Assembly: GCA_050253415.1 (NCBI GenBank)
Contig: JBFWJC010000007.1
Coordinates: forward strand, 1 to 64,000
Direction of reading: 5' to 3'
DNA length: 64,000 nt
From: Pedobacter sp.
GTDB taxonomy: Bacteria; Desulfobacterota; Desulfuromonadia; Desulfuromonadales; Syntrophotaleaceae
A program made the position numbers and the translations under genes. Numbering within the stretch: the first letter of the stretch is position 1; every line of letters starts with the position of its first letter. Below, in pieces: positions 1-31,559 of this stretch. The notes beneath the pieces were generated by a model. That model did not search any database. It was not told the DNA's origin and was given only the letters and a program-made list of their open reading frames with translations.

Positions 1-1
1 T

Positions 2-169
2 CAGGCGATGGAAGACGTTAAGGCGGGGCGTTCTGAGCCGATAGACGATTTGCTTGAAATGATCGAAGAAGACAAAAACTGGCTTGAGGAAAACAAAACC
101 GCAATCGATAACTACAATGAGCGCATCGAGAGGGATGGCATTTTTGGCTCTTGCAAGAGGAGATTTTGA
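2..169 (+). CDS. 5'-partial small protein ending in a CcdA-like toxin-binding tail, preceded by an antitoxin-like helix
   Basis: Not in the ORF track. Frame +2 reads QAMEDVKAGRSEPIDDLLEMIEEDKNWLEENKTAIDNYNERIERDGIFGSCKRRF*. W-x-EEN-x-x-AI-x-x-YN...G-x-F...RF matches the CcdA family C-terminus. Confidence 0.75.
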   Translation, partial: QAMEDVKAGRSEPIDDLLEMIEEDKNWLEENKTAIDNYNERIERDGIFGSCKRRF

Positions 170-222
170 GGGCCCAGACAAGATCCCCCAGAACGGCTTA
201 TTTTTAACTAGTCCTGAAACAC

Positions 223-257
223 AGAAACCCCGTCCGGATTGCCAGACGGGGTTTTCT
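223..257 (+). terminator. Probable intrinsic terminator
   Basis: Hairpin AAACCCCGTC-loop-GACGGGGTTTT downstream of the 2..169 ORF. Confidence 0.6.
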
Positions 258-585
258 CGCATTGCAGGATTTCTAACACACTCCCCTACTCTGCACCATC
301 GTAATTTCCCACAAGTTGTCCCAAATCAGATCCCAGTTCACCTTGGACAAATAGGACACCAACCAACCAATGCAGCGAATCCCAACTTTGCTCCGAAAGA
401 TGGGGTTCAACAACCAATTTTGTGTATTTCAGCGTTCACGCCAGTGAAAAACTAAAACCCTAAATCAAGAAATGAAAAAAAGACGATAAAATAGTTGCTT
501 GTGGTGTCATCTTTGAGAAGTCTGTTCAACATTGTCAGGAGTGGAAAGATTGACCATGGAGAATCCGCCCCAGAAGGAGGTGTAG

Positions 586-840
586 ATGGCATACTCGAAC
601 CATGAGAGAGCGGCTGACCGCATGACGCAGCAGTCGCTGCGAGAGGTCGCAGAGGGGTCTTCTGCACCAATCGATGATCTGCTCCTGATGGTCGACAAAG
701 ATAAAAACGAATCTGTTGGCCAAGGCTGGCATGAGCTTCATTCTGGTGAAGGTGAGGTCGTGGCCGAGGATGATGACTTTTCCGAGTCTGTCAGAAATGA
801 AATCCGAGAGCGACCAGGGCATGCATCGGACGATGATTAG
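586..840 (+). CDS. Small acidic protein with antitoxin-like (ParD/RelB-type) C-terminal helices
   Basis: Strong RBS AAGGAGGTG. SLREVAEGSSAPIDDLL resembles AMEDVKAGRSEPIDDLL of ORF 2..169. A second motif is GWHELHSGEG...DDDFSESVRNEI. Confidence 0.6.
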   Translation: MAYSNHERAADRMTQQSLREVAEGSSAPIDDLLLMVDKDKNESVGQGWHELHSGEGEVVAEDDDFSESVRNEIRERPGHASDDD

Positions 841-1013
841 CCCTGCCGCTTGCCCAACCGCTCCATGTAGTCGCGGACAGCGGCCCGAAGTTTGTCGTTC
901 GGCGCCGACGCGTTCTCGATCGCGTCAAAAAACCTTTCAGCGTCTTCCGTGCTTAGTCGAATCGTAGATTCCAGCGAGGCCACGGTGCTATTTTTGGGCT
1001 TGGAAAATTTCAT
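837..1013 (-). CDS. 58-aa protein resembling the C-terminal half of TacA/AtaR (DUF1778) antitoxins
   Basis: Below the ORF-track cutoff. RBS GGAGGTG precedes MKFSKPKNSTVASLESTIRLSTEDAERFFDAIENASAPNDKLRAAVRDYMERLGKRQG*. The I-x-LS-x-x-D-x-x-x-F-x-x-A-x-EN-x-x-x-PN-x-x-L-x-x-A pattern is typical of DUF1778. Confidence 0.7.
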   Translation of the reverse strand: MKFSKPKNSTVASLESTIRLSTEDAERFFDAIENASAPNDKLRAAVRDYMERLGKRQG

Positions 1014-1041
1014 GGCCCACCTCCGGAGGGCTTGCTAATCA

Positions 1042-1131
1042 TCAAAACCGTCTTTTGCGTGAACCGAAAACACCATCTTTCTTGATATGCTCATTGTAGT
1101 TGTCGATCGCCTCTTTGTTCTCTTCGAGTCA
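1042..1131 (-). pseudogene. CcdA-like tail cut off from the upstream ORF by an in-frame TGA at the conserved Trp
   Basis: In frame with 1129..1467 it reads (TGA)LEENKEAIDNYNEHIKKDGVFGSRKRRF*. It is 22/28 identical to the tail at 83..166. Confidence 0.75.
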
Positions 1132-1467
1132 GCGCTCTTCAAGCTTCTCACTCTCCTCATCAAGCTCACGATTGATTCTTTCGAGCGAATACTCAGCGAA
1201 GTCACTTTCCTCACCCTTTATAAGTGTCTTGCGTAAGGCCTCTTTTTTGGCAACATCCTGAAGGATGATCGATGCGAGCTTTGTCATCCCCTCATCCCTG
1301 ACATGCAGCACCTCACCTTTCGTGGCTAGAGACTTTTCAAGGTCTTCAGCAATGTATCGATAGACACGCAAAGAGTTTTGGCTATCTCCATCCGGTGACT
1401 TAGCATTGTAGCCGGAAACACGTAGGATCTCTCTGTAATTAATTCTGGTGCGGATTTCAAAAGGCAT
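1129..1467 (-). CDS. Unknown N-terminus fused to a ParD-like toxin-binding segment
   Basis: RBS GGAG. Residues ~74-104 (KKEALRKTLIKGEESDFAEYSLERINRELDE) follow the ParD2-type pattern KL..LR..LI.GE.SG.A.Y.L.....ELD. Confidence 0.7.
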   Translation of the reverse strand: MPFEIRTRINYREILRVSGYNAKSPDGDSQNSLRVYRYIAEDLEKSLATKGEVLHVRDEGMTKLASIILQDVAKKEALRKTLIKGEESDFAEYSLERINRELDEESEKLEER

Positions 1468-1577
1468 AACGTGACTCCTGACAGGGCAAGTTATGGTAAT
1501 TACTCTTATAGTGATTACTATAATAATGTTCGCTAATACCTAAGTCGTCACTCCACCAATTCGACCCCACTGAAGAA

Positions 1578-1838
1578 TTATTTTTGCTCTCTACCGGGGC
1601 AATCATGCTCCTCGACAGCAGCGCCCTCCGCCTTGACAGTGACACAACAATTGCAGTTATCGAAATTTTTGCAGCGAAAAAACAGCTCGATCACCTCAGG
1701 AATTACGTCAAAATCAAACGCAGGAACTACCAGGGTCATCCTTGCGCCGCATCGATGGCAGAGTAAATTTCCGGGGCGATAGTCACTCCGCTTTTGCTCT
1801 GGACTGTGAGGCCATTGCGCTATCCCCGTTTTTCTCAT
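1578..1838 (-). CDS. Small C4 zinc-ribbon protein
   Basis: CHRCGARM...FFRCKNFDNC, like topoisomerase-type or Ogr-type C4 fingers; RBS-like AAAGGTGG upstream. Confidence 0.55.
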   Translation of the reverse strand: MRKTGIAQWPHSPEQKRSDYRPGNLLCHRCGARMTLVVPAFDFDVIPEVIELFFRCKNFDNCNCCVTVKAEGAAVEEHDCPGREQK

Positions 1839-1856
1839 TGAGCCACCTTTCCAACT

Positions 1857-2174
1857 TCACTTAACCAACCCGTTTCCGACGACATACAAACGCCCCACGT
1901 CGGTAGACAAGATCTGCTCCTTGTGGTCGATCCAGGTTTTTTCAGCCAGAGCCTTGGCCTCCTTGTGGTTCTTAACAACATTATCAAATTCGAGACTTAC
2001 AAGAAATCTATACTCATCTTCGGGTATTTCCGGGTCATCGGCATCATCTAGATAAAAAACCAACCAGGTGCGCTCATCACCGCCCTTCCAGTAACAGTAG
2101 ATGGTCGCATTATCCAAGGCAAAAGTAGCACAAAGATAATCTGGCAGATATTTCATTGGAGTGGTTTTGGCCAT
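1857..2174 (-). CDS. Hypothetical acidic protein
   Basis: 105-aa ORF with GGAG RBS, co-oriented with 1578..1838. Confidence 0.55.
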   Translation of the reverse strand: MAKTTPMKYLPDYLCATFALDNATIYCYWKGGDERTWLVFYLDDADDPEIPEDEYRFLVSLEFDNVVKNHKEAKALAEKTWIDHKEQILSTDVGRLYVVGNGLVK

Positions 2175-2464
2175 AGTGTCTCCGTAGGCTTCCCCTTTCT
2201 GAGGGGTTATCTGTTTAGGTTAAAAATTGTTGCATTTCAATTGTAGAGCCCCTCTTATAACGCCTATGGATAATAAAACTTCCTGCAGGCTAAGGTGTTG
2301 TAACCGTCCCTTGGAAAAGAGGCATGAGGTTATCTCCTTCTGATAGCTGAGCCCTCTTTCTGCCCGCGACCTCTAAAATTCCTGGTAGCACAAAGCCTTC
2401 CCCGGCTGTCGGGATTGACTCGGGACTGTCTGGAAAAAGACTTCCGATTTGTGTCCACAAGTCA

Positions 2465-2493
2465 AGCATAGCCGCCCCGCGGACAACTTGCAA
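2465..2493 (-). promoter_or_regulatory. Candidate sigma70 promoter for the minus-strand small-ORF operon
   Basis: TTGCAA-N17-TATGCT on the minus strand. Confidence 0.45.
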
Positions 2494-2792
2494 GTGCCGG
2501 TGTTTGTTGCAGAATTAACACTTTTGTTAGTTTTTATAATTGGGGGATTTGTACACTATTTCAAGAGGGTTTCTAAGAGTGTTGCCCGCAATTTTGCTGA
2601 GTAGCAACGATAAAATTTGAAAAACTTTTTTTAAAAAAGAGTTATAGATAGTAGGCATGTAGAAAACAGAGGGGCGGTTACGTCGTGGGGTGTGTAGTAG
2701 AGATATTTCTTGAGGAGGGGGCGATGGTTCAATCCATCTTGCTGCGCAATTAAGTTTTCAACAGGCAGTGAAACTACGAAGGGAGTCTCAAC

Positions 2793-2944
2793 ATGACTAA
2801 AAGAGCCCAGCAGGACATTAATAGAAAATTAAAGGTCTTAAATCACGCTAAAGAAACTGAAATATAGCTAAGACTTGCCGTTACTTCGGGATTTGTCGAC
2901 AGACTTTTCATGTTTGGAAAAAAGCGTTTGCGACACAGGGTGAA
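2793..2944 (+). mobile_element. IS481-like transposase N-terminal remnant (frameshifted, truncated)
   Basis: MTKRAQQDINRKLKVLNHAKET, then after a frameshift NIAKTCRYFGICRQTFHVWKKAFATQGE, which is the HTH start of IS481-family transposases. Confidence 0.65.
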
Positions 2945-3442
2945 ATAGTGGTTTCTGTCCCTAACAAACTTGCTAGGATGAGACACCGTCCAAATCATTG
3001 ATCTGCCGCCGCTTTTCGCCGTTCCACCCCTTGTTTTTCATGCCCTTCTTTGGTAGGATCATCGACAAGTAAAATAGGCTAGGAAAAGGTGCAAGCAGAG
3101 GTAAGGCATTCACTCTGGCCACTTGTTTTTGGCTTTTAAAAGCCGCTTAGGCTCGGGAATCTCTCAGAAAGCGAACAGGGCAATTTGCCGGGGTGAGGCT
3201 TTCCATAAGCGGGGGCTATTGCGCAGACATGGTCGATTCACCGGGGGTACCACGCAGGTCGCAACCATACAGGATATTGTACTGACCGATAACTAAGAAC
3301 ACCACCTGCCCTCTCCCGGCACGAGGAACCCCGGCACCCCTGGCAGACTAATCGGTATACGGCCTCATCCGAACCAATGTCTGTTCGTGGGTCATTACCA
3401 GTGACTATTGCATAGTCTCATAAGCTCAATTCAATCCTAAAC

Positions 3443-3530: not shown

Positions 3531-3878
3531 TCAAATATTTTTTATGATGGAATCTCGAATAGTTACATATCGAACCCCATACATACAGTTTCCGCCAGAT
3601 GGTTTTTCTATACATAAAGCATCTATGGTACCTGGCGCGTTCACCAATGTCACGCCACGATGCAAGGCAAGACCGGAACGTGGCCTTACCTGGGCTTCAA
3701 AACCAACAGGAATAGCCATAGCAATGCCAGTAGGAACAACGGCTCGACAACCGGGCTCGACGACCAACTCTTCTTCTGGACAGGCAAACACATCCATCCC
3801 GGCAGCATGACGACTCATATATCGGGGCAGCTGTGCCCGTGAGCGCAATTTTTTAACTTTAATTTTCAAGATATCCAT
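3531..3878 (-). pseudogene. dut: Truncated dUTPase; homology ends at ~3618 and 28 unrelated residues follow
   Basis: Motifs [12 protein letters not shown] and NAPGTIDA are present. The expected DYRGE and motifs 4-5 are missing. Confidence 0.9.
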
Positions 3879-10428: not shown

Positions 10429-13284
10429 TCAAAGAGAGGTCTTAACCTCTTCCATCTCAAAAACCTCTATAATATCGCCAACTTTTATATCGTTATAGTT
10501 TTCAAGACTCAAACCGCATTCATAACCGCTTTGGACTTCGCGAGCATCATCCTTAAAGCGCTTGAGGGATGCAAGCTTCCCTTCCCAAATGACGACATGA
10601 TCGCGGATGAGGCGAACCTGAGCGTTGCGCAGGACCTTACCTTCAGTGACATAGCAACCGGCAATGGTTCCAACCTTGGAGACACTAAAGGTTTCACGAA
10701 TTTCAACCTTACCAAGAGCCTTCTCTCTCAAGGTCGGTGCAAGCAGTCCTTCCATGGCATCGCGAATATCGTTCACAGCATCGTAGATAATGTTGTAGAA
10801 ACGGATATCAACGCCTTCGACTTCAGACAAAGAAGAAGCCTTAGGTTCAGCTCGAACGTTAAAACCAATAATGATCGCGTCCGAAGCAGAAGCCAGGGAG
10901 ACGTCACTTTCAATGATCCCACCTACACCCGTATGAATTACCACCAGGCGACAGGCCTCGGTAGAAAGCTTAACGAGAGACTCTCGCACGGCTTCTACGG
11001 AACCCTGAACATCACCCTTAATGATTACCTTAAGCTCCTGGACTTCACCTTGCTGAAGTCGGGCATAAAGCTGTTCAAGGGAGATTTTACTAGTGGTAGC
11101 CAGTTCCTGCTCACGTATTTTCCGCTGCCTATGGGAGGCAATATCCTTGGCCGCTTTTTCTGTTTCTACGGCATGAAAAGTATCCCCGGCGATAGGAGTT
11201 CCGGAGAGACCCGTAACCTCTACAGGACAGGACGGACCAGCCTCTTCAAGGCGCTCCCCACGGTCATTGCTCATTGTGCGAACTCTGCCGAAATGCAAAC
11301 CTGAAACGATGGGATCACCGATACGCAGCGTACCATCCTCAACCAGAACAGTGGCCACCGGCCCACGCCCTCTATCGAGACGGGCTTCAACGATAGCGCC
11401 TTTAGCCCTCTTATTGGGGTTTGCCTTAAGATCAAGAACTTCGGCCTGAAGCAGAACCATTTCCAGCAGGCTATCGAGATTGGTGCGGTTTTTAGCTGAC
11501 ACTTCGACGAAGATTGTATCGCCGCCCCACTCCTCAGGAACCATCTCAAATTCGGTCAGTTCCTGTTTGACGCGATCAGGATTGGCGTCGGGTTTATCCA
11601 TTTTGTTGATTGCCACGACCATGGGCACGCCTGCGGCCTTGGAGTGATTTATCGCTTCCTTGGTCTGAGGCATAACACCGTCATCGGCAGCAACCACCAA
11701 TATGACAATATCAGTAACCTTGGCACCACGTGCGCGCATGGAAGTAAAAGCTTCATGGCCGGGGGTATCAAGGAATGTTATTTTTTGACCGTCAACAGTG
11801 ACGTCATAGGCTCCGATGTGCTGTGTAATGCCACCGGCTTCGCCATCAGTAACATTGGTAGTCCGTATCGCGTCAAGCAAGCTGGTTTTACCATGGTCAA
11901 CGTGCCCCATGATCGTTACCACCGGGGGCCGCGGTACAGCACCTTCGTCACTACCACCTTCTTCAATAATGCCAGCGGTATCAGCCAGAAGATTTTCTTC
12001 ATCAAAAGCGACGTTTTCGACTTCGTAGCTAAACTCCGAGGCTAAAAGAGCAGCGGTTTCAAAATCAAGAGGATGGTTAATCGTAACCATTTGGCCCTGA
12101 CGCATCAATTCGGTGATCAGATCTTTGCTCTTGACCCCCATGCGTTTGGCCAACTCGCCGACGGTAATAACATCACTAATACGAATAATTCGCTTAATCG
12201 CCTTAGAGACGGTTACTTCGGTTTTCTTCTGAACCTTGGGACCTTTTTTGCCACGGCGCAAGCGACGTTCATCACGATCAGGCTCATAGACTTCGCGGCG
12301 ACCGCGACGTGCCTTGCCACCATCTTGCACTTCTTTATCTTTATCGTGAAAGCCGCCTTTACCTTTTTTGGCCTTTTTACCACCGCGCACTTCTTTGTCA
12401 GCGGCAGGACCGCCATCATGCGGAACAACAGGTTGTGGCGCGACTTCTTTCACCCGAGGTGCTGCTGCACCGGGTGCGGGCCTGGCGGTCTTGGGCCGTT
12501 CCGGCCGTTCTGGACGCTCCGGACGACCTCGATCGGTCTTACCGCGTTCAGGTCGCTCACCACGTTCTTGACGTTTTGGAGGAGGAGCCAGTGTTGACAG
12601 CTCAACACGTCCGAGGATCTTGGCCCGATTGGCCGTAGCTTTCTCTACTTTAGGTTTATCCTTGGTCACCGAAATATCAGCCGCTTCCGGCTGCCCTTCT
12701 ATTTTATCGGCCGTTTTGGATGCTTCTAGCGTACCTTCCTTCGACTCAACATCAGCCACTGCGGATGGTTTATGTTCAACTTGGGGCTTTTCTTCGGCGA
12801 CCGGTGTGATTTCAGATTGCATTTCCGGCGCGGAGGGTGCCGGCGATTCAGGCGTTTTTTCTTGTACCGCCTCGACTATTTCTTCAGGCTCAACCACTGC
12901 GATTGTTTCAACCACAGCTTCCTGCGCAGAAACGGCAGGCTGCTGGTCCTCAGCAGGAACTTCGGGCTGTTTTTCTTTCACGGAAGACTCTTCAACGGGA
13001 GTAGCCTCGTCAGCACTGACCTCTTCTTCAGCCGCGGGGGGGAGCGACTGCTCAACCGAGGGGACTTCCTTGCGACGACGCCGAATGACTCCAGCAGTTA
13101 TGCGCTGTTCTTCTACACGTTCGACTTTGGCAGGTGCGCCTTCGAATCTCTCCAGGTCTTCTTCGCTCAGCACACTCATATGACTTTTGACATCAATGCC
13201 GGCTTCGTGAAGCTTTTCCAACAACACCTTATTATCCAGTTCCATTTGTTGCGCTAACTCGTATACCCGTATTTTTTTACCCAT
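10429..13284 (-). CDS. infB: Translation initiation factor IF-2
   Basis: [17 protein letters not shown]; long low-complexity N-terminal region. Confidence 0.98.
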
Positions 13285-15183: not shown

Positions 15184-15672
15184 TCAGAATTCAATTTCCA
15201 GATTGGCTTTTTCGATATCTTCGAGAGGCAGTTCAACCCGAAAACCATTTTTTTCTTTCAACTCGATAATCACCTTGCCATCACGTAGACCTTCAAGAGC
15301 TCCGGTAAAGGTTTTACGTCCTCGCCCCTTCCCATCGATATCGATGGGAACGCGCGTCTTCACCTTAACCATGCGTCCGGAAAAGCGCTCGTAATCGCTA
15401 GCCTTGGTCAACGGCCGATCGAGACCAGGCGATGAGACCTCTAAATTATAGGCTGGTTCAATCAGGTCTTCAACCTCAAGGAGAACACTGACTTCACGGC
15501 TGACTTCAGCGCATGTATCCAGGGTAATTCCACCAGGCTGATCAATAAAAAGCCGAAGAACCCAACCTTGCCCTTCTCTCTGGTATTCAAGGTCCACAAG
15601 CTCACAATCCTTATCATCGAGGACAGGAAGCACAAGGGCCCGAACTTTTTCCAGAACTGTATTTTGCTTCAT
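15184..15672 (-). CDS. rimP: Ribosome maturation factor RimP
   Basis: YNLEVSSPGLDRPL; start placed at 15672. Confidence 0.96.
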   Translation of the reverse strand: MKQNTVLEKVRALVLPVLDDKDCELVDLEYQREGQGWVLRLFIDQPGGITLDTCAEVSREVSVLLEVEDLIEPAYNLEVSSPGLDRPLTKASDYERFSGRMVKVKTRVPIDIDGKGRGRKTFTGALEGLRDGKVIIELKEKNGFRVELPLEDIEKANLEIEF

Positions 15673-15724: not shown

Positions 15725-15838
15725 CCGTAGTGAACGAACCTGACAGCTGATTGTTACCACGAAGTATCGAATAACGCAAGAAAAAAATAATTTTCAACCA
15801 CTTGCAAGACCTTAGGTTTGCTGGGCTAAATGTTGTTA

Positions 15839-17134
15839 TCAGACTCTTTCGAGCAAGGTGATACTTTCCGTGTGATGCGTCTGAGGAAAAAGATCAAAAG
15901 GCCGCGACCAGATAAGCCGGTATCCGTTGTTCAACAATACCTGCAAATCTCGCACAAGAGTAGGTGGATCGCAGGAAACATACAGTATTTTGGCCGGACG
16001 CACGGCAACCAACTCTCGGGCCACGTCATAAGCACCGCTTCGCGGTGGGTCGAGAATGACAAGGTCGAGAGGCAAATCGCTACCATAGAGGGTCGCGGCG
16101 CCATAAGCTTCCCTGGCGAAAAAGGCTGCGTTGCCGACCTCATTAAGCCGAGCGTTAAGTCGCGCCATCTCGATACTCTGCGGATAAGCTTCCACTCCGA
16201 TCACTTCTTGCGCCAGACGAGCCACGGGCAGACTGAAGTTGCCCATTCCACAAAAAAGATCCAGCACCCGGCTAGGCGGGTTGGAAATCAAAGCGCCTAT
16301 GACTTCACGGACCATGGCACGATTCTGAGGCAAGTTGATCTGGGCAAACCCACCAGGACCATAGCCGAGACGAAGAACAGGGCTGTCAACCTCGACAATT
16401 AACTCGAGAGGTCCGCATACATGCGATGGCGTTGATTTGCGATCCGATTGAACAAAAACGGCGACCCCTGAACCCATGGCCAGTGGTTTCAGATGGGCGA
16501 CAAAATCGTCTACGTCAGAGATAAGGCCATGAATGACGGCTCGCACACGGTCTTGGTCATCAACCGCAAGATCGATTTGCGGGACCCGCTTTGCCCACCG
16601 GGTATTTGAAATCCATTGGCGAAGCAGATCCTTGGCGTGGTTCAATGCCGGATGCATAATTGGACAGCTCGAAACCGGTATGACGTTATGACTGCCGCGT
16701 CGATAAAATCCGATTTGAAACCCTTTCGACGTATCGACACATTTAAATTGAACCCGGCTTCGATAGCCCCATTGTTCAGGAGACGGAACAATCGGCAACA
16801 CTGCTTCAGGCGCCACACCCAGCTTACGTACCAGAAAGTCCTTATAAATCCGTTCCTTCCATACACACTGTTCCGAATAGGAAAGATGCTGCCATTGACA
16901 CCCCCCACATTTGCCGAATAACGGGCAAGCAGGCGCTATTCGAACCCCCGAAGAAACCAGCAACTGCTCAACTTGCGCTTCGGCAAAGCGTTTCTTTTGC
17001 CTGGAAACAACGCATCGCACCCGATCGCCTGGCGCGACAAGGGGAACAAACACCACTTTTCCATCGTGATGTCCAATACCACTGCCACCGTACGCCAGAG
17101 ATTCAATCAGCAGATCATCTATATACTCAGCCAT
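15839..17134 (-). CDS. rlmD: 23S rRNA (uracil-5)-methyltransferase, RlmD-like
   Basis: TRAM domain; C..F..CGGC Fe-S motif; LDPPRSG, YVSCDP, DLFPQTHHTE. Confidence 0.9.
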   Translation of the reverse strand: MAEYIDDLLIESLAYGGSGIGHHDGKVVFVPLVAPGDRVRCVVSRQKKRFAEAQVEQLLVSSGVRIAPACPLFGKCGGCQWQHLSYSEQCVWKERIYKDFLVRKLGVAPEAVLPIVPSPEQWGYRSRVQFKCVDTSKGFQIGFYRRGSHNVIPVSSCPIMHPALNHAKDLLRQWISNTRWAKRVPQIDLAVDDQDRVRAVIHGLISDVDDFVAHLKPLAMGSGVAVFVQSDRKSTPSHVCGPLELIVEVDSPVLRLGYGPGGFAQINLPQNRAMVREVIGALISNPPSRVLDLFCGMGNFSLPVARLAQEVIGVEAYPQSIEMARLNARLNEVGNAAFFAREAYGAATLYGSDLPLDLVILDPPRSGAYDVARELVAVRPAKILYVSCDPPTLVRDLQVLLNNGYRLIWSRPFDLFPQTHHTESITLLERV

Positions 17135-19120: not shown

Positions 19121-19693
19121 TCAGGCTACTGCCTTACGGGCGTATTCAGCACCACAATCCAAAGCCAGAATGTTCCCAGGAATGAACCCTTTATTACGCT
19201 CGGGCAATATACTATCGAGTCCGGACTTCAAACTATCCATAGAAACCACACCGGTATGCGCGGCATAAGCACCAAGAATGACCATGTTTACCAATCGCGC
19301 GTTACCGAGTTCAGCTGCCATCTCATTAGCCGGAATAGCAAGCTTTTGAATGTTCGCTTCAAGCTGTGGCACCTCTTCGACAAGGCAGGAGTTATAGATG
19401 CAAAGACCGCCCGAGGCAATACGTTTAAAATATTTATCCATGGCAAGCTGATTAAAAAGCAGCATGGAGTCGGGATGCCCCATAACCGGGGAACCGATTT
19501 CCTCCCCTGAAACGATCACGGTGCAAGTGGCAGCCCCCCCACGTTTTTCGGGGCCGTAAGCAGGAAAATAGGTTGCGTTTTTATTTTCCAGAATTGCAGC
19601 ACACGCCAACAGGTTACCAATGAGCAAAATACCCTGCCCACCATACCCGGCCATAAAAACGTTATCGCTCATTACGTCAAGTCCATTTCGCAA
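19121..19693 (-). CDS. 2-oxoacid:ferredoxin oxidoreductase gamma subunit
   Basis: AGYGGQG, YGPEKRGG, NMVILGA. Confidence 0.92.
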   Translation of the reverse strand: MRNGLDVMSDNVFMAGYGGQGILLIGNLLACAAILENKNATYFPAYGPEKRGGAATCTVIVSGEEIGSPVMGHPDSMLLFNQLAMDKYFKRIASGGLCIYNSCLVEEVPQLEANIQKLAIPANEMAAELGNARLVNMVILGAYAAHTGVVSMDSLKSGLDSILPERNKGFIPGNILALDCGAEYARKAVA

Positions 19694-30752: not shown

Positions 30753-31559
30753 TCAGAAAAAACTTTCAGGAACCAAAATAACGTCATCCGGTTTAACCGG
30801 CGTGTGAAGCGGCACCTTTTCCAGAACGCGCTCGCTGCCGTTGACCTGGCGAATGATCTGGATCCGTTTTTGGGAGGCCAGTTCGGTAAATCCACCGGCC
30901 ATGGTAACGGCTTTTATAACGGAGGTACCCGTCTCGAATTTATAGGCATCGGGCTTTTTAACCTGCCCCGTCACATAAAACACGCCGGCTTTTGAAACGA
31001 AGATACTGTCGCCACCGCGGATGGTAAGTTTTGAATTTGCCCCGGTTCTTTCCATAAGATTTTTTAAATTCACCGTAATGGTGTCGTCCTGGTCGGGGTT
31101 GGCAGGATTCTTTCGTTTGATGGTCACATCATCCCCGGCCTCATCGGTCAACCCTCCGGCTTTGGAAATCAACTCCATAAGTGTAGTGGCCCCGCTCAAT
31201 TCATAAAGACCGGGAACAACCACCTCGCCCATAATGGTGGCTTTCTGACTGCCGAATTTTTCTACAAAGACCGAAACCTGCGGATCGAGGATATAGCCCT
31301 GAGCCAGCTTGGAAGCTATTTTCTGGGCCACCTCGGATATGGACAGGCCATCGATTGCAATTTCTCCAACCAGGGGAAACAGGATAACCCCCTTGCCACT
31401 GACCCGAGTGGTTGTATTCAAATCCGGGCTGTCGTATACCATGACCTTGAGGACATCTCCTTCCCCCACCCGATAATCCAATTCTTCCGCTGTGGCAGTA
31501 TTTCCACAAAGGACTATCAGCAACAGGATTAAAACTAATCTGGAAATCTGCCTTGTCAT
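30753..31559 (-). CDS. Polysaccharide export protein (Wza/OPX-like, SLBB domains)
   Basis: YRVGEGDVLKV, PLVGEI, AGG repeats; ends VPESFF. Confidence 0.9.
   Translation of the reverse strand: MTRQISRLVLILLLIVLCGNTATAEELDYRVGEGDVLKVMVYDSPDLNTTTRVSGKGVILFPLVGEIAIDGLSISEVAQKIASKLAQGYILDPQVSVFVEKFGSQKATIMGEVVVPGLYELSGATTLMELISKAGGLTDEAGDDVTIKRKNPANPDQDDTITVNLKNLMERTGANSKLTIRGGDSIFVSKAGVFYVTGQVKKPDAYKFETGTSVIKAVTMAGGFTELASQKRIQIIRQVNGSERVLEKVPLHTPVKPDDVILVPESFF

What the first reader, a model, noticed from the sequence alone, without database searches (positions are those of the whole stretch)
1..1467. Cassette of stand-alone antitoxin neutralisation modules with no toxins: candidate anti-TA or anti-addiction array
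Seen: four small ORFs in 1.5 kb on two convergent arms, with overlapping stop codons at 837-840. Together they carry a CcdA-like tail twice, a ParD2-like segment, a TacA/DUF1778-like segment and paralogous x-E-[DV]-x-x-G-x-S-x-PIDDLL helices. The three complete ORFs have good RBSs. Established: in CcdA, ParD and TacA/AtaR the C-terminal part binds the toxin, while the N-terminal RHH binds DNA. Here the complete ORFs show no recognisable RHH and no toxin ORF lies next to them. Inference: the element collects and concatenates minimal toxin-binding peptides from several unrelated TA families. This could neutralise host TA defence or the addiction modules of competing elements. I do not recognise this architecture as a described system.
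Basis: partly seen in the sequence, partly recalled or inferred. Interest (0 to 1): 0.9.

Follow-up and report, generated by a model that had tools for sequence, protein, structure and literature searches.

The report
Toxin-less cluster of chimeric antitoxin fragments
A small mobile gene cluster encodes mini-proteins assembled only from the toxin-binding pieces of several different bacterial antitoxins, with no toxin genes beside them, so they may act as free antidotes, although this has not been tested.

Summary
The observation largely holds. Window 1-1467 carries four small genes. A (2-169, cut by the contig start) is a 'PIDDLL' segment plus a CcdA tail. B (586-840) is PIDDLL plus an unassigned acidic tail. 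C (837-1013, minus strand) is the C-terminal half of TacA. D (1129-1467, minus strand) is a folded phage-type four-strand-plus-helix domain, a ParD-like segment and a second CcdA tail. That tail lies behind an in-frame TGA private to this assembly: relatives and 3 of 3 other metagenome runs read TGG. None has an RHH DNA-binding domain.

I traced PIDDLL to a canonical RHH antitoxin whose neighbour has a ParE/RelE fold. A co-fold places PIDDLL, not the CcdA tail, on that toxin (0.79; best control 0.00). CcdB, RES, Pfam ParE and this ParE-fold partner were not found in the genome. One TacA-GNAT pair lies elsewhere.

Block 376-2775 is 91% identical to another genus in a different context. Related proteins reuse the same segments in several combinations. 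dN/dS is 0.17-0.33 over deeper comparisons.

Best reading (about 0.45): trans-acting orphan antidotes against toxin-antitoxin systems. Rivals are decaying relics, or partners of the unknown neighbours o86 and o105. This is a new variant of orphan-antitoxin or anti-addiction genes. No experiment or expression data exist.

The parts
2..169 (+). ORF A. Its 5' end is cut by the contig start. It has a PIDDLL segment followed by a CcdA-type C-terminal tail. The full 70-aa form is in contig C5 (P0031, 98% nt identical over window 1-276).
   Evidence: CcdA E 7.3e-7, profile 38-71/71; 45% identity over 31 aa to the C-end of a canonical CcdA that precedes a CcdB.
207..276 (.). Hairpin repeat of about 63 bp, terminator-like, after ORF A. 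It is a member of a dispersed family of about 12 copies in accessory regions of this genome. It is not an attC site.
   Evidence: MFE -28.7 kcal/mol, z -4.7. One search shows the real integron's attC sites are different.
586..840 (+). ORF B, 84 aa. It has a PIDDLL segment plus an acidic tail (conserved G-W, H-S-G and D-F positions) with no assigned family. There is no RHH, and an in-frame stop lies directly before the ATG.
837..1013 (-). ORF C, 58 aa. It is the C-terminal (toxin-binding) half of a TacA/DUF1778 antitoxin with a new short N-terminus and no RHH.
   Evidence: TacA1 E 1.7e-5, profile 44-78/80; 64% identity over 44 aa to the C-end of this genome's own full TacA in C13.
1129..1467 (-). 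ORF D as it stands, 112 aa. It has a conserved four-strand-plus-helix N-domain (aa 1-~80) and a ParD-like segment (aa ~72-106). It ends at the TGA at 1129-1131.
1129..1131 (-). In-frame TGA in D at the position of a conserved Trp. It is private to this assembly.
   Evidence: W in 5 of 5 intact 141-aa homologues; plus-strand 1129 T is read as C, giving TGG, in all 3 runs that cover it (X2, X4, X5).
1041..1128 (-). Cut-off CcdA-type tail of D, including the original stop at 1041-1043.
   Evidence: (CcdA E 1.8e-7 when read through).
1578..1838 (-). o86, an 86-aa Cys-rich ORF upstream of D in the same orientation. Function unknown, fast evolving.
   Evidence: Ogr_Delta E 0.032 only; dN/dS 1.14; indel variants.
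1857..2174 (-). o105, a 105-aa ORF of a rare family. In other loci it is linked with the N-domain of D. Function unknown.
   Evidence: dN/dS 0.27; 16 representatives; 4 of 401 class genomes, G000 included, all in the window's own family.
376..2775 (.). Conserved mobile block holding B, C, D, o86 and o105. It is 91.4% identical in nucleotides to a block in a genome of another genus (G011), where the flanks are different.

Best explanation
The first ~2.8 kb of the window belongs to a horizontally moving accessory module. It encodes small proteins assembled only from the toxin-neutralising segments of type II antitoxins, without the DNA-binding (RHH) half and without toxin genes.

Composition of the four proteins:
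- A: PIDDLL segment (from an RHH antitoxin of a ParE/RelE-fold toxin) plus the CcdB-binding tail of CcdA.
- B: PIDDLL plus an unassigned acidic tail.
- C: the toxin-binding half of TacA.
- D: a phage-type four-strand-plus-helix domain (possibly a dimerising scaffold; this is inference), a ParD-like segment and a CcdA tail. In this genome D was recently truncated by TGG>TGA.

Proposed mechanism. The peptides are made constitutively, because they have no autoregulatory domain. They bind in trans to toxins of TA systems encoded elsewhere: in a new host, on a competing plasmid, or in an abortive-infection system. This blocks killing or growth arrest. The benefit goes to the element (counter-defence) or to the cell (anti-addiction).

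Shown here: the domain composition, the orphan status, the shuffling of segments, the mobility and purifying selection.

Inferred: expression, binding to any toxin (one co-fold only), and the biological benefit.
For: 1. Composition. Pfam matches cover only the C-terminal, toxin-binding parts of CcdA and TacA. ORF C aligns to residues 50-93 of the genome's own TacA. The A tail aligns to the last 31 residues of a canonical CcdA that precedes a Pfam-confirmed CcdB.

2. Origin of PIDDLL.
- 7 of the 16 homologues are 99-100-aa proteins with an N-terminal RHH-like part before PIDDLL.
- In 16 of 20 genome loci and 33 of 40 metagenome loci the next gene is a 109-114-aa protein.
- The model of that protein (pLDDT 72) has ParE/RelE/HigB toxins as its best PDB matches. 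The best is PfiT 9w3a, E 5.6e-4, TM 0.58.

3. Co-fold. This toxin with the genome's full-length A (P0031) scored 0.79, with best control 0.00. That mark was reached by 116 of 157 solved complexes and 2 of 215 mismatched pairs, and holds only roughly here because my own alignments were used. The three runs agree in >=90% of contacts and the partner's pLDDT is 71-73. The interface covers P0031 residues 6-43, which is PIDDLL. No residue of the CcdA tail beyond 43 is listed at the interface.

4. Orphan status.
- Own genome (100% complete): no CcdB, RES, Pfam ParE_toxin or the ParE-fold partner.
- G011: no CcdB or partner, and only partial TacA hits.
- The same toxin families are common in the class. 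PF07362 is in 158 of 401 genomes. The PIDDLL protein query (P0040) matched in 32 of 401.

5. Shuffling.
- The RHH-less stub plus PIDDLL occurs with four different continuations: a CcdA tail, the B tail, the B tail plus a further module, and a ParD-like tail.
- The ParD-like segment (Pfam 25.2 bits, above the cut-off of 21, in P0038) is also in D.
- The N-domain of D also occurs alone, or with the ParD-like segment plus Xre/ParS antitoxin domains.

6. Selection and mobility.
- Window 376-2775 is 91% identical to G011, with different flanks.
- A-type genes occur in another family, G153.
- dN/dS values: A-type 0.17 (dS 1.09); D against its paralogue 0.29; B against its paralogue 0.33; C 0.29 and D 0.27 against G011.

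7. Phage links.
- The N-domain model of D matches 77-aa actinophage proteins in BFVD (E 3.2e-5, TM by target 0.83, rmsd 1.9 over 80 columns).
- One IMG/VR contig has a stand-alone PIDDLL segment with no RHH and no toxin.
Against: - There are no expression data and no experiment.
- Decay is visible. D has a nonsense codon here. The A copy in G011 is truncated. Of the 7 B-type copies seen, 2 are broken: P0030/L090 and L103. The B paralogue in C1 appears split relative to P0036.
- Short-range dN/dS is weak for B (0.63) and neutral for o86 (1.14), on few substitutions.
- The family is rare. I saw about 15 RHH-less PIDDLL clusters and 8 clusters bearing the D N-domain (5 of them intact 141-aa forms) among 5.8 billion clusters. 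I found none in the plasmid or phage collections.
- Apart from TacT, no target is present in the two genomes examined. Any benefit would have to come from encounters with other elements, which is not shown.
- The co-fold used a toxin from another genome, and ParDE-like complexes are solved. The pass may therefore reflect likeness rather than binding.
- The conserved neighbours o86 and o105 are unexplained and could be the real partners.
- Contig C7 starts inside ORF A, so the immediate left neighbour is unseen.
Confidence: 0.45

Rival explanations
1. The ORFs are non-functional or fading remnants of former toxin-antitoxin loci in an accessory, IS-scarred region. The RHH halves and the toxins were lost, and what remains drifts without a role.
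For: - Private TGA in D.
- Truncated A copy in G011.
- Frameshifted or broken B copies, L103 and P0030.
- A clearly decayed canonical locus in G307.
- A second TacA fragment with 2 TAA stops near the module in G011.
- What I read as a transposase fragment at about 2790-3000 (eyeballed only).
- B dN/dS of 0.63 against G011.
- The review PMC7354431 (passages) reports that most orphan antitoxins in Klebsiella look like degraded systems.
Against: - Deeper comparisons give dN/dS of 0.17-0.33 with dS about 1 for the A, B and D families.
- The RHH-less form has one precise, conserved new N-terminus with its own ribosome-binding site. It then occurs with four different in-frame continuations.
- 5 of 5 database D homologues of this architecture are intact.
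- The whole 2.4-kb block is kept with the same gene order and overlapping stops in another genus.
Confidence: 0.22
2. The module is a self-contained system of unknown type in which D and/or C partner with the neighbouring unknown genes o105 and o86. These could be, for example, a new toxin or effector and its neutraliser, or a phage-derived regulatory pair. On this reading the antitoxin-like tails serve that system rather than foreign toxins.
For: - o105, o86, D and C lie on one strand with short gaps and are conserved as a block.
- The N-domain of D and the o105 family co-occur in four further loci: C5, C1, G009 and UBA6812. There a metallophosphatase lies between them.
- o105 is under purifying selection (0.27).
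- The o105 family is confined to the window's own family: 4 of 401 class genomes, G000 included.
Against: - o86 and o105 have no toxin family or known fold.
- Gene order differs between loci.
- The short N-domain form that accompanies o105 has no tail at all. The tails are therefore not needed for that association.
- The tails are plainly homologous to CcdA, ParD and ParS segments whose partners are known families.
- A and B stand apart on the other strand.
Confidence: 0.2
3. The cluster is an array of integron gene cassettes that happen to carry antitoxin fragments.
For: The genome has a true integron integrase (TIGR02249, 447.6 bits) 8.4 kb from the end of contig C1, followed by a cassette array that runs off the contig. 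The window begins at a contig start.
Against: - The integron's attC sites end with classical TAAC/GTTA core sites. They are unrelated to the hairpin repeat at 207-276.
- blastn-short found no copy of the window's repeat in the C1 array.
- In G011 the block lies between an ars operon and RecJ/RecD2-like genes, not in an integron.
Confidence: 0.05

Closest known systems
Orphan antitoxins acting as anti-addiction modules. Examples are chromosomal CcdA of Erwinia chrysanthemi neutralising F-plasmid CcdB, and the orphan antitoxins on the Bartonella plasmid pVbh. Source: passages of the review PMC7354431.
   Same: Antitoxin homologues without an adjacent toxin. The proposed role is neutralising toxins brought by other elements.
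   Different: Those are whole antitoxins of one family, usually with their DNA-binding domain. Here the RHH is absent. Two neutralising segments of different families are joined in one peptide, and several such genes are clustered.
[quoted passage not shown] PaaA2 of the paaR2-paaA2-parE2 system is recalled from memory. [quoted passage not shown]
   Same: There is no DNA-binding domain, and a short, largely helical or disordered toxin-wrapping peptide does the work.
   Different: Those sit in an operon with their toxin and often a separate regulator. Here no toxin is adjacent, and the toxin families I searched for, other than TacT, were not found in the genome.
Phage anti-TA proteins. Examples are T4 Dmd against RnlA/LsoA (passage in PMC7354431) and orphan antitoxin-like enzymes of T4-like phages against DarTG1 (abstract of bioRxiv 10.1101/2024.07.11.602962).
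   Same: A mobile element carries an antitoxin-like gene without the toxin, to defeat a host TA defence. The N-domain of D has a phage-protein fold, and one viral contig carries a lone PIDDLL segment.
   Different: Those are single proteins, proven experimentally, in lytic phages. Here the proteins are chimeric peptides, clustered, in a chromosomal accessory region, and untested.
Canonical CcdA-CcdB, TacA-TacT, ParD-ParE and the RHH-PIDDLL / ParE-fold pair found here in Desulfuromonadia-class genomes.
   Same: They share homologous toxin-binding segments.
   Different: The window proteins have no RHH, no autoregulatory potential, no cognate toxin gene beside them, and mixed-family composition.

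Membership tests
CcdA antitoxin (PF07362) | C-terminal CcdB-binding segment | tested here: met
   A: E 7.3e-7, profile 38-71/71. D read through: E 1.8e-7, profile 36-71/71. BLASTP against a canonical CcdA: 45% identity over 31 aa, E 9e-9.
CcdA antitoxin (PF07362) | N-terminal RHH DNA-binding and dimerisation domain | tested here: not met
   Profile positions 1-35 are unmatched. The full-length A (P0031) has a 9-residue stub plus PIDDLL instead. D has a four-strand-plus-helix domain.
CcdA antitoxin (PF07362) | Adjacent ccdB toxin gene | tested here: not met
   No PF01845 match in the own genome or in G011 at E <= 0.01. The control rang in E. coli. The left flank of A in C7 is unassembled, but the C5 and G153 copies have no toxin.
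TacA / DUF1778 antitoxin (PF08681) | C-terminal toxin-binding region | tested here: met
   E 1.7e-5, profile 44-78/80. 64% identity over 44 aa to the C-end of the genome's own TacA.
TacA / DUF1778 antitoxin (PF08681) | N-terminal RHH domain | tested here: not met
   ORF C is 58 aa. Profile positions 1-43 are unmatched. The full TacA in C13 matches positions 1-79 plus RHH_5.
TacA / DUF1778 antitoxin (PF08681) | Adjacent GNAT (TacT) toxin | tested here: not met
   No GNAT lies next to ORF C. The only TacA-GNAT pair is in contig C13.
ParD antitoxin (PF03693) | C-terminal ParE-binding segment | tested here: inconclusive
   D scores E 0.022, 15.6 bits, below the cut-off of 21. The C2 paralogue scores E 0.0012. 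The closely similar segment in P0038 scores 25.2 bits, above the cut-off.
ParD antitoxin (PF03693) | RHH domain and adjacent ParE | tested here: not met
   No RHH is present. No PF05016 match in the own genome at E <= 0.001.
RHH-PIDDLL antitoxin of a ParE/RelE-fold toxin (unnamed pair defined here) | PIDDLL toxin-contact segment | tested here: met
   Alignment of 19 proteins with P-I-D-D-L-L invariant. The co-fold interface covers residues 6-43 of P0031, score 0.79 against best control 0.00. This is a model only.
RHH-PIDDLL antitoxin of a ParE/RelE-fold toxin (unnamed pair defined here) | N-terminal RHH-like part and downstream toxin gene | tested here: not met
   A and B start with a 3-residue stub in place of about 43 residues. 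The toxin HMM and alignment find nothing in the own genome.
Orphan antitoxin / anti-addiction module | Antitoxin homologue with no cognate toxin gene beside it | tested here: met
Orphan antitoxin / anti-addiction module | Neutralises a toxin encoded elsewhere | not testable with these tools
   Only one co-fold, with a toxin from another genome. This needs rescue and binding assays.
Integron gene cassette | attC recombination site bounding each cassette | tested here: not met
   The hairpin at 207-276 lacks the TAAC/GTTA core sites seen in the genome's real attC array.

The most novel reading that the evidence does not exclude
A mobile 'antidote cassette'. Elements of this lineage generate, by shuffling short linear toxin-binding segments onto non-DNA-binding stubs or scaffolds, bivalent mini-antitoxins. 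Each would disarm two unrelated toxin families, for example a ParE-fold toxin plus CcdB, or ParE plus CcdB or RES. Several such genes are clustered, giving broad-spectrum protection against toxin-antitoxin-based defence or plasmid addiction. This would be a counter-defence strategy analogous to multi-target anti-CRISPR or anti-restriction loci.
Probability: 0.3. Interest if true: 0.8.

Novelty: new variant of a known kind. Interest (0 to 1): 0.6.

Why it matters
Whether orphan antitoxins act as anti-addiction or anti-defence genes is an old and largely untested idea (review PMC7354431, passages). This locus offers an unusually clean test case, for four reasons:
- The peptides have lost everything except toxin-binding segments.
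- Segments from different families are joined in one chain.
- The toxin families I searched for, other than TacT, were not found in the host genome.
- The natural partner families are identifiable in related genomes.

If the peptides rescue cells from those toxins, three things would follow:
- Neutralising segments are exchangeable building blocks.
- Mobile elements assemble multi-specific antidotes.
- A set of minimal, portable toxin inhibitors would become available.

If they do not, the locus documents how TA systems decay into conserved-looking fragments.

Tried and rejected
- Alternative genetic code (TGA read as Trp): rejected. Other genes in the window read normally under table 11, and other runs carry TGG at the site.
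- Integron cassette reading: rejected.
- tRNA and Rfam scans of the region: nothing found.
- NCBIfam and PHROGs on the window ORFs: only weak hits. phrog_3491 matches D at E 0.0013. NCBIfam CcdA scores E 0.043.
- Foldseek against the PDB for D: no match with E <= 0.001.
- VIA wide search for D: best Z 6.1 (capping protein, AcrIF24 N-domain), which is at the tool's stated noise level.
- ESM Atlas for the N-domain of D and for o105: no usable lead.
- B tail against the ParD-like part of D: hhalign probability 0.1. The PDB profile search gave E >= 0.2 only.
- Sequence search of the PDB with the ParE-fold partner: E >= 0.39. It has no Pfam family.
- D and the ParE-fold partner against the plasmid collection, and D against the phage collection: no match.
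- D in IMG/VR viral contigs: none.
- Genome-contig scan with D: only 2 loci, both near-copies of this genome's own paralogues.
- Expression: no RNA holder was listed, so nothing can be said about expression.
- Earlier-findings look-up: nothing to show.
- In one search my crude script paired a CcdA gene with a downstream 104-114-aa ORF in only 10 of 30 loci. In the others it picked the wrong ORF, so this is not evidence of absence. Only L108 was checked by Pfam.
Full report
**What is there**

The window is the first 64 kb of contig C7 of an 18-contig, 4.1-Mb genome, so position 1 is an assembly edge. Reading the sequence confirms four small ORFs:
- A: 2..169 (+), open at its 5' end.
- B: 586..840 (+).
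- C: 837..1013 (-).
- D: 1129..1467 (-).

The stops of B and C overlap by 2 nt. B, C and D each have a GGAGG-type ribosome-binding site 6-8 nt before the ATG. Two more ORFs, o86 (1578..1838) and o105 (1857..2174), precede D on the minus strand.

Core synteny with genomes of the same genus begins only at about 3619. Everything to the left of that is accessory DNA. It includes what I read, by eye only, as a transposase fragment at about 2790-3000.

**Family matches**

- A matches only the last 34 positions of the CcdA profile (E 7.3e-7).
- C matches only positions 44-78 of the 80-position TacA1/DUF1778 profile (E 1.7e-5).
- B matches nothing.
- D matches ParD only below threshold (E 0.022).

It lies behind an in-frame TGA at 1129-1131, exactly where A has Trp.

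That stop is private to this assembly:
- Five database homologues are intact 141-aa proteins with Trp at this position. The closest is 93% identical and comes from Syntrophotalea acetylenivorans, according to its source name.
- In all three metagenome runs whose contigs cover the site, the base gives TGG.
- The genome does not use TGA as a sense codon. Its other genes read normally.

**D is not just peptides**

An AlphaFold model built from 11 sequences gives residues 1-80 a pLDDT of 82-91, as four strands plus a long helix. The tails have low confidence.
- No PDB match was convincing.
- In the viral library the domain matches 77-aa uncharacterised actinophage proteins (E 3.2e-5, TM by target 0.83, rmsd 1.9 over 80 columns).

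The domain is strongly conserved, with 25 invariant columns. It occurs in several settings:
- Alone, as an 85-aa protein before a metallophosphatase and an o105 paralogue, in C5, C1 and relatives.
- With the ParD-like segment plus Xre-HTH and ParS/MbcA toxin-binding domains, in C2 (Pfam 1.4e-10).
- With other tails (P0008).

**Where PIDDLL comes from**

Searches with B and with the full-length A of contig C5 (P0031) returned a small family.
- Seven of the 16 hits to A are 99-100-aa proteins with an RHH-like N-terminal half, then PIDDLL, then a short basic tail.
- In the genomes of the class, this protein query (P0040) matched in 32 of 401 genomes, the own genome included.
- The next gene is a 109-114-aa protein in 16 of 20 fetched genome loci and in 33 of 40 metagenome loci. 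Three more loci are cut by a contig end.
- That partner has no Pfam family. Its model (pLDDT 72; strand, two helices, four strands) finds almost only ParE/RelE/HigB toxins in the PDB. The best is PfiT 9w3a (E 5.6e-4, TM 0.58).

A co-fold of this toxin with P0031 scored 0.79, against 0.00 for the best of three controls. The tool's mark was reached by 116 of 157 solved complexes and 2 of 215 mismatched pairs, and holds only roughly here because my own alignments were used. The runs agree in at least 90% of contacts, and the partner's pLDDT was 71-73. The interface covers P0031 residues 6-43, which is the PIDDLL segment. No residue of the CcdA tail beyond 43 is listed at the interface. Because ParDE-like complexes are solved, this pass may partly reflect likeness. 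It supports binding but does not show it.

**Shuffling of segments**

In the RHH-less proteins, about 43 N-terminal residues are replaced by a three-residue stub at one precise position. After PIDDLL come four different continuations:
- A CcdA tail: the A type (P0031-33).
- The acidic B tail: P0025-30 and P0034.
- The B tail plus a further module: P0036. P0039 of contig C1 looks like a broken form of this type.
- A ParD-like segment: P0035, P0038 and P0042. In P0038 it passes Pfam's ParD threshold at 25.2 bits.

The same ParD-like segment is the middle of D. The B tail shows no detectable relation to it (hhalign probability 0.1).

The CcdA tail is homologous to the C-end of the class's own canonical CcdA, which precedes a Pfam-confirmed CcdB:
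- PF07362 is present in 158 of 401 genomes.
- The CcdB of L108 scores 1.2e-32.
- The tail shares 45% identity with it over 31 aa.

ORF C is 64% identical over 44 aa to the C-end of the genome's own full TacA.

**Orphan status**

- The own genome (100% complete by markers, 4,535 bases withheld) has no match to CcdB, RES or Pfam ParE_toxin.
- It also has none to the ParE-fold partner.
- Its only CcdA matches are the three tails.
- One canonical TacA-GNAT pair exists in contig C13.
- G011 likewise lacks CcdB and the partner, and has only partial TacA hits.
- The C5 and G153 copies of A have no toxin beside them.
- What lies left of A in C7 is unassembled.

**Mobility and selection**

- Window 376-2775 is 91.4% identical to a block in G011, which belongs to another genus of the same family. 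Gene order and the overlapping stops are the same there. The flanks differ: an ars operon on one side, and RecJ- and RecD2-like genes on the other.
- A and its hairpin form a separate unit. It is 98% identical to a copy in C5 and 89% identical to one in G011.
- An A-type gene also occurs in a different family of the order, G153.

Nei-Gojobori dN/dS values:

| Comparison | dN/dS |
|---|---|
| C, window vs G011 | 0.29 |
| D, window vs G011 | 0.27 |
| o105, window vs G011 | 0.27 |
| B, window vs G011 | 0.63 |
| o86, window vs G011 | 1.14 |
| A type, C5 vs G153 (dS 1.09) | 0.17 |
| D vs its C2 paralogue | 0.29 |
| B vs its C1 paralogue | 0.33 |

The comparisons with G011 rest on only 12-26 differences per gene. 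The deeper comparisons argue that the RHH-less chimeras have been maintained as proteins.

**Signs of decay**

- The TGA in D.
- A truncated A copy in G011.
- Two broken copies among the seven B-type copies seen.
- A C1 paralogue that looks split relative to P0036.
- A second TacA fragment with two stops near the block in G011.
- Clearly decayed canonical loci elsewhere.

The family is also rare. I found it in neither the plasmid nor the phage collection. One 29-kb IMG/VR contig carries a lone PIDDLL segment without an RHH or a toxin, but its start signals are poor.

**Interpretation**

The best-supported reading is that these are trans-acting orphan antidotes. They are toxin-binding segments freed from autoregulation, often two per chain, carried by a mobile block. 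I put this at about 0.45, because nothing shows expression or neutralisation.

The rivals are:
- Fading relics of former TA loci (0.22).
- A self-contained unknown system in which D and C work with o105 and o86 (0.20).
- Integron cassettes (0.05). The genome's real integron, with its integrase in C1, has classical attC sites unlike the hairpin here.

**Relation to what is known**

- Orphan antitoxins and anti-addiction are established ideas (PMC7354431, passages read).
- Antitoxins made of the neutralisation segment alone, and the exchange of linear neutralising motifs, are discussed in PMC10440598 (abstract and Discussion passages).
- Phage orphan antitoxin-like counter-defence is reported for DarTG1 (abstract only).
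- My two literature searches listed no paper on clustered, toxin-less, mixed-family chimeras. This is limited to the held library and to those search terms.

I therefore rate this a new variant of a known kind.

Noticed in passing
window 207-276; also G000 C5:116-181, 3335-3404, 11686-11738, 15347-15409, 19311-19391, 30884-30937, 100533-100564; C2:17759-17813; C4:13252-13303, 15828-15884; C1:1404551-1404592: A hairpin repeat of about 63 bp. It has a GC-rich stem with bulges and a T-run (RNA fold -28.7 kcal/mol, z -4.7). About 12 copies are confined to accessory regions near contig ends. In other metagenomes it has many different flanks (loose ends). It is terminator-like. A mobile or boundary role has not been examined.
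   Followed up: partly
G000 C1:1750302-1759659 (L017): A true chromosomal integron. The integrase scores 447.6 bits on TIGR02249. It is followed by small ORFs separated by classical attC-like repeats that run off the contig end.
   Followed up: partly
G000 C5:28768-30348 and C1:1395992-1397473; L038 4986-6455; G002 C3 island (L142): A recurrent trio: an 85-aa stand-alone D-type N-domain, a calcineurin-like metallophosphatase and an o105 paralogue. In G002, o105 and metallophosphatase genes lie in an island that by eye carries an integrase-like gene (not scanned). In L038 the trio sits near genes that look to me like E1/JAB-type CBASS accessories. That last reading is by eye only and was not scanned.
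   Followed up: partly
window 63/79 joined to 696/755 in contigs of runs X2 and X4 (table 5): Contigs from other metagenomes join an A-like PIDDLL head to a B-like tail. This is the natural chimera type also seen as P0034, P0036 and P0039. It is independent DNA evidence for the head/tail exchange.
   Followed up: partly
L005 1336..1832 (G000 C1:1414861-1415319 region): The B/A-type paralogue P0039 seems to be a broken version of the 123-aa P0036. The final module of P0036 (a Trp-rich tail with a 'GQVEE' motif) is present as a separate 46-aa ORF just downstream in another frame.
   Followed up: no
L143 2962..3159 (IMG/VR contig, 29 kb): A stand-alone PIDDLL segment, 54% identical over 35 aa to the canonical antitoxin. 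It lies between a 208-aa ORF and a 604-aa ORF that I took by eye to be a DNA polymerase (not scanned). There is no RHH remnant and no toxin in 6 kb. The start codon and ribosome-binding site are unconvincing.
   Followed up: partly
window about 2790-3000 and about 3531-3878: A short ORF that I read, by eye and from recalled similarity only, as the N-terminal fragment of an IS transposase. The accessory/core boundary (about 3619) falls inside the ORF that I read as dut, so the 3' end of that ORF differs from relatives.
   Followed up: no
L003 about 2066-3015 (G000 C2:23778-24727): Tandem units of about 267 bp that repeatedly encode the same peptide motif in one frame, next to the D paralogue and a degenerate hipB/hipA-like pair. 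Unexplained.
   Followed up: no
G011 C1:1054283-1054417 (L105): A second TacA C-terminal fragment with two TAA stops, about 1.7 kb from the conserved block in the relative. It has no counterpart in the window.
   Followed up: no
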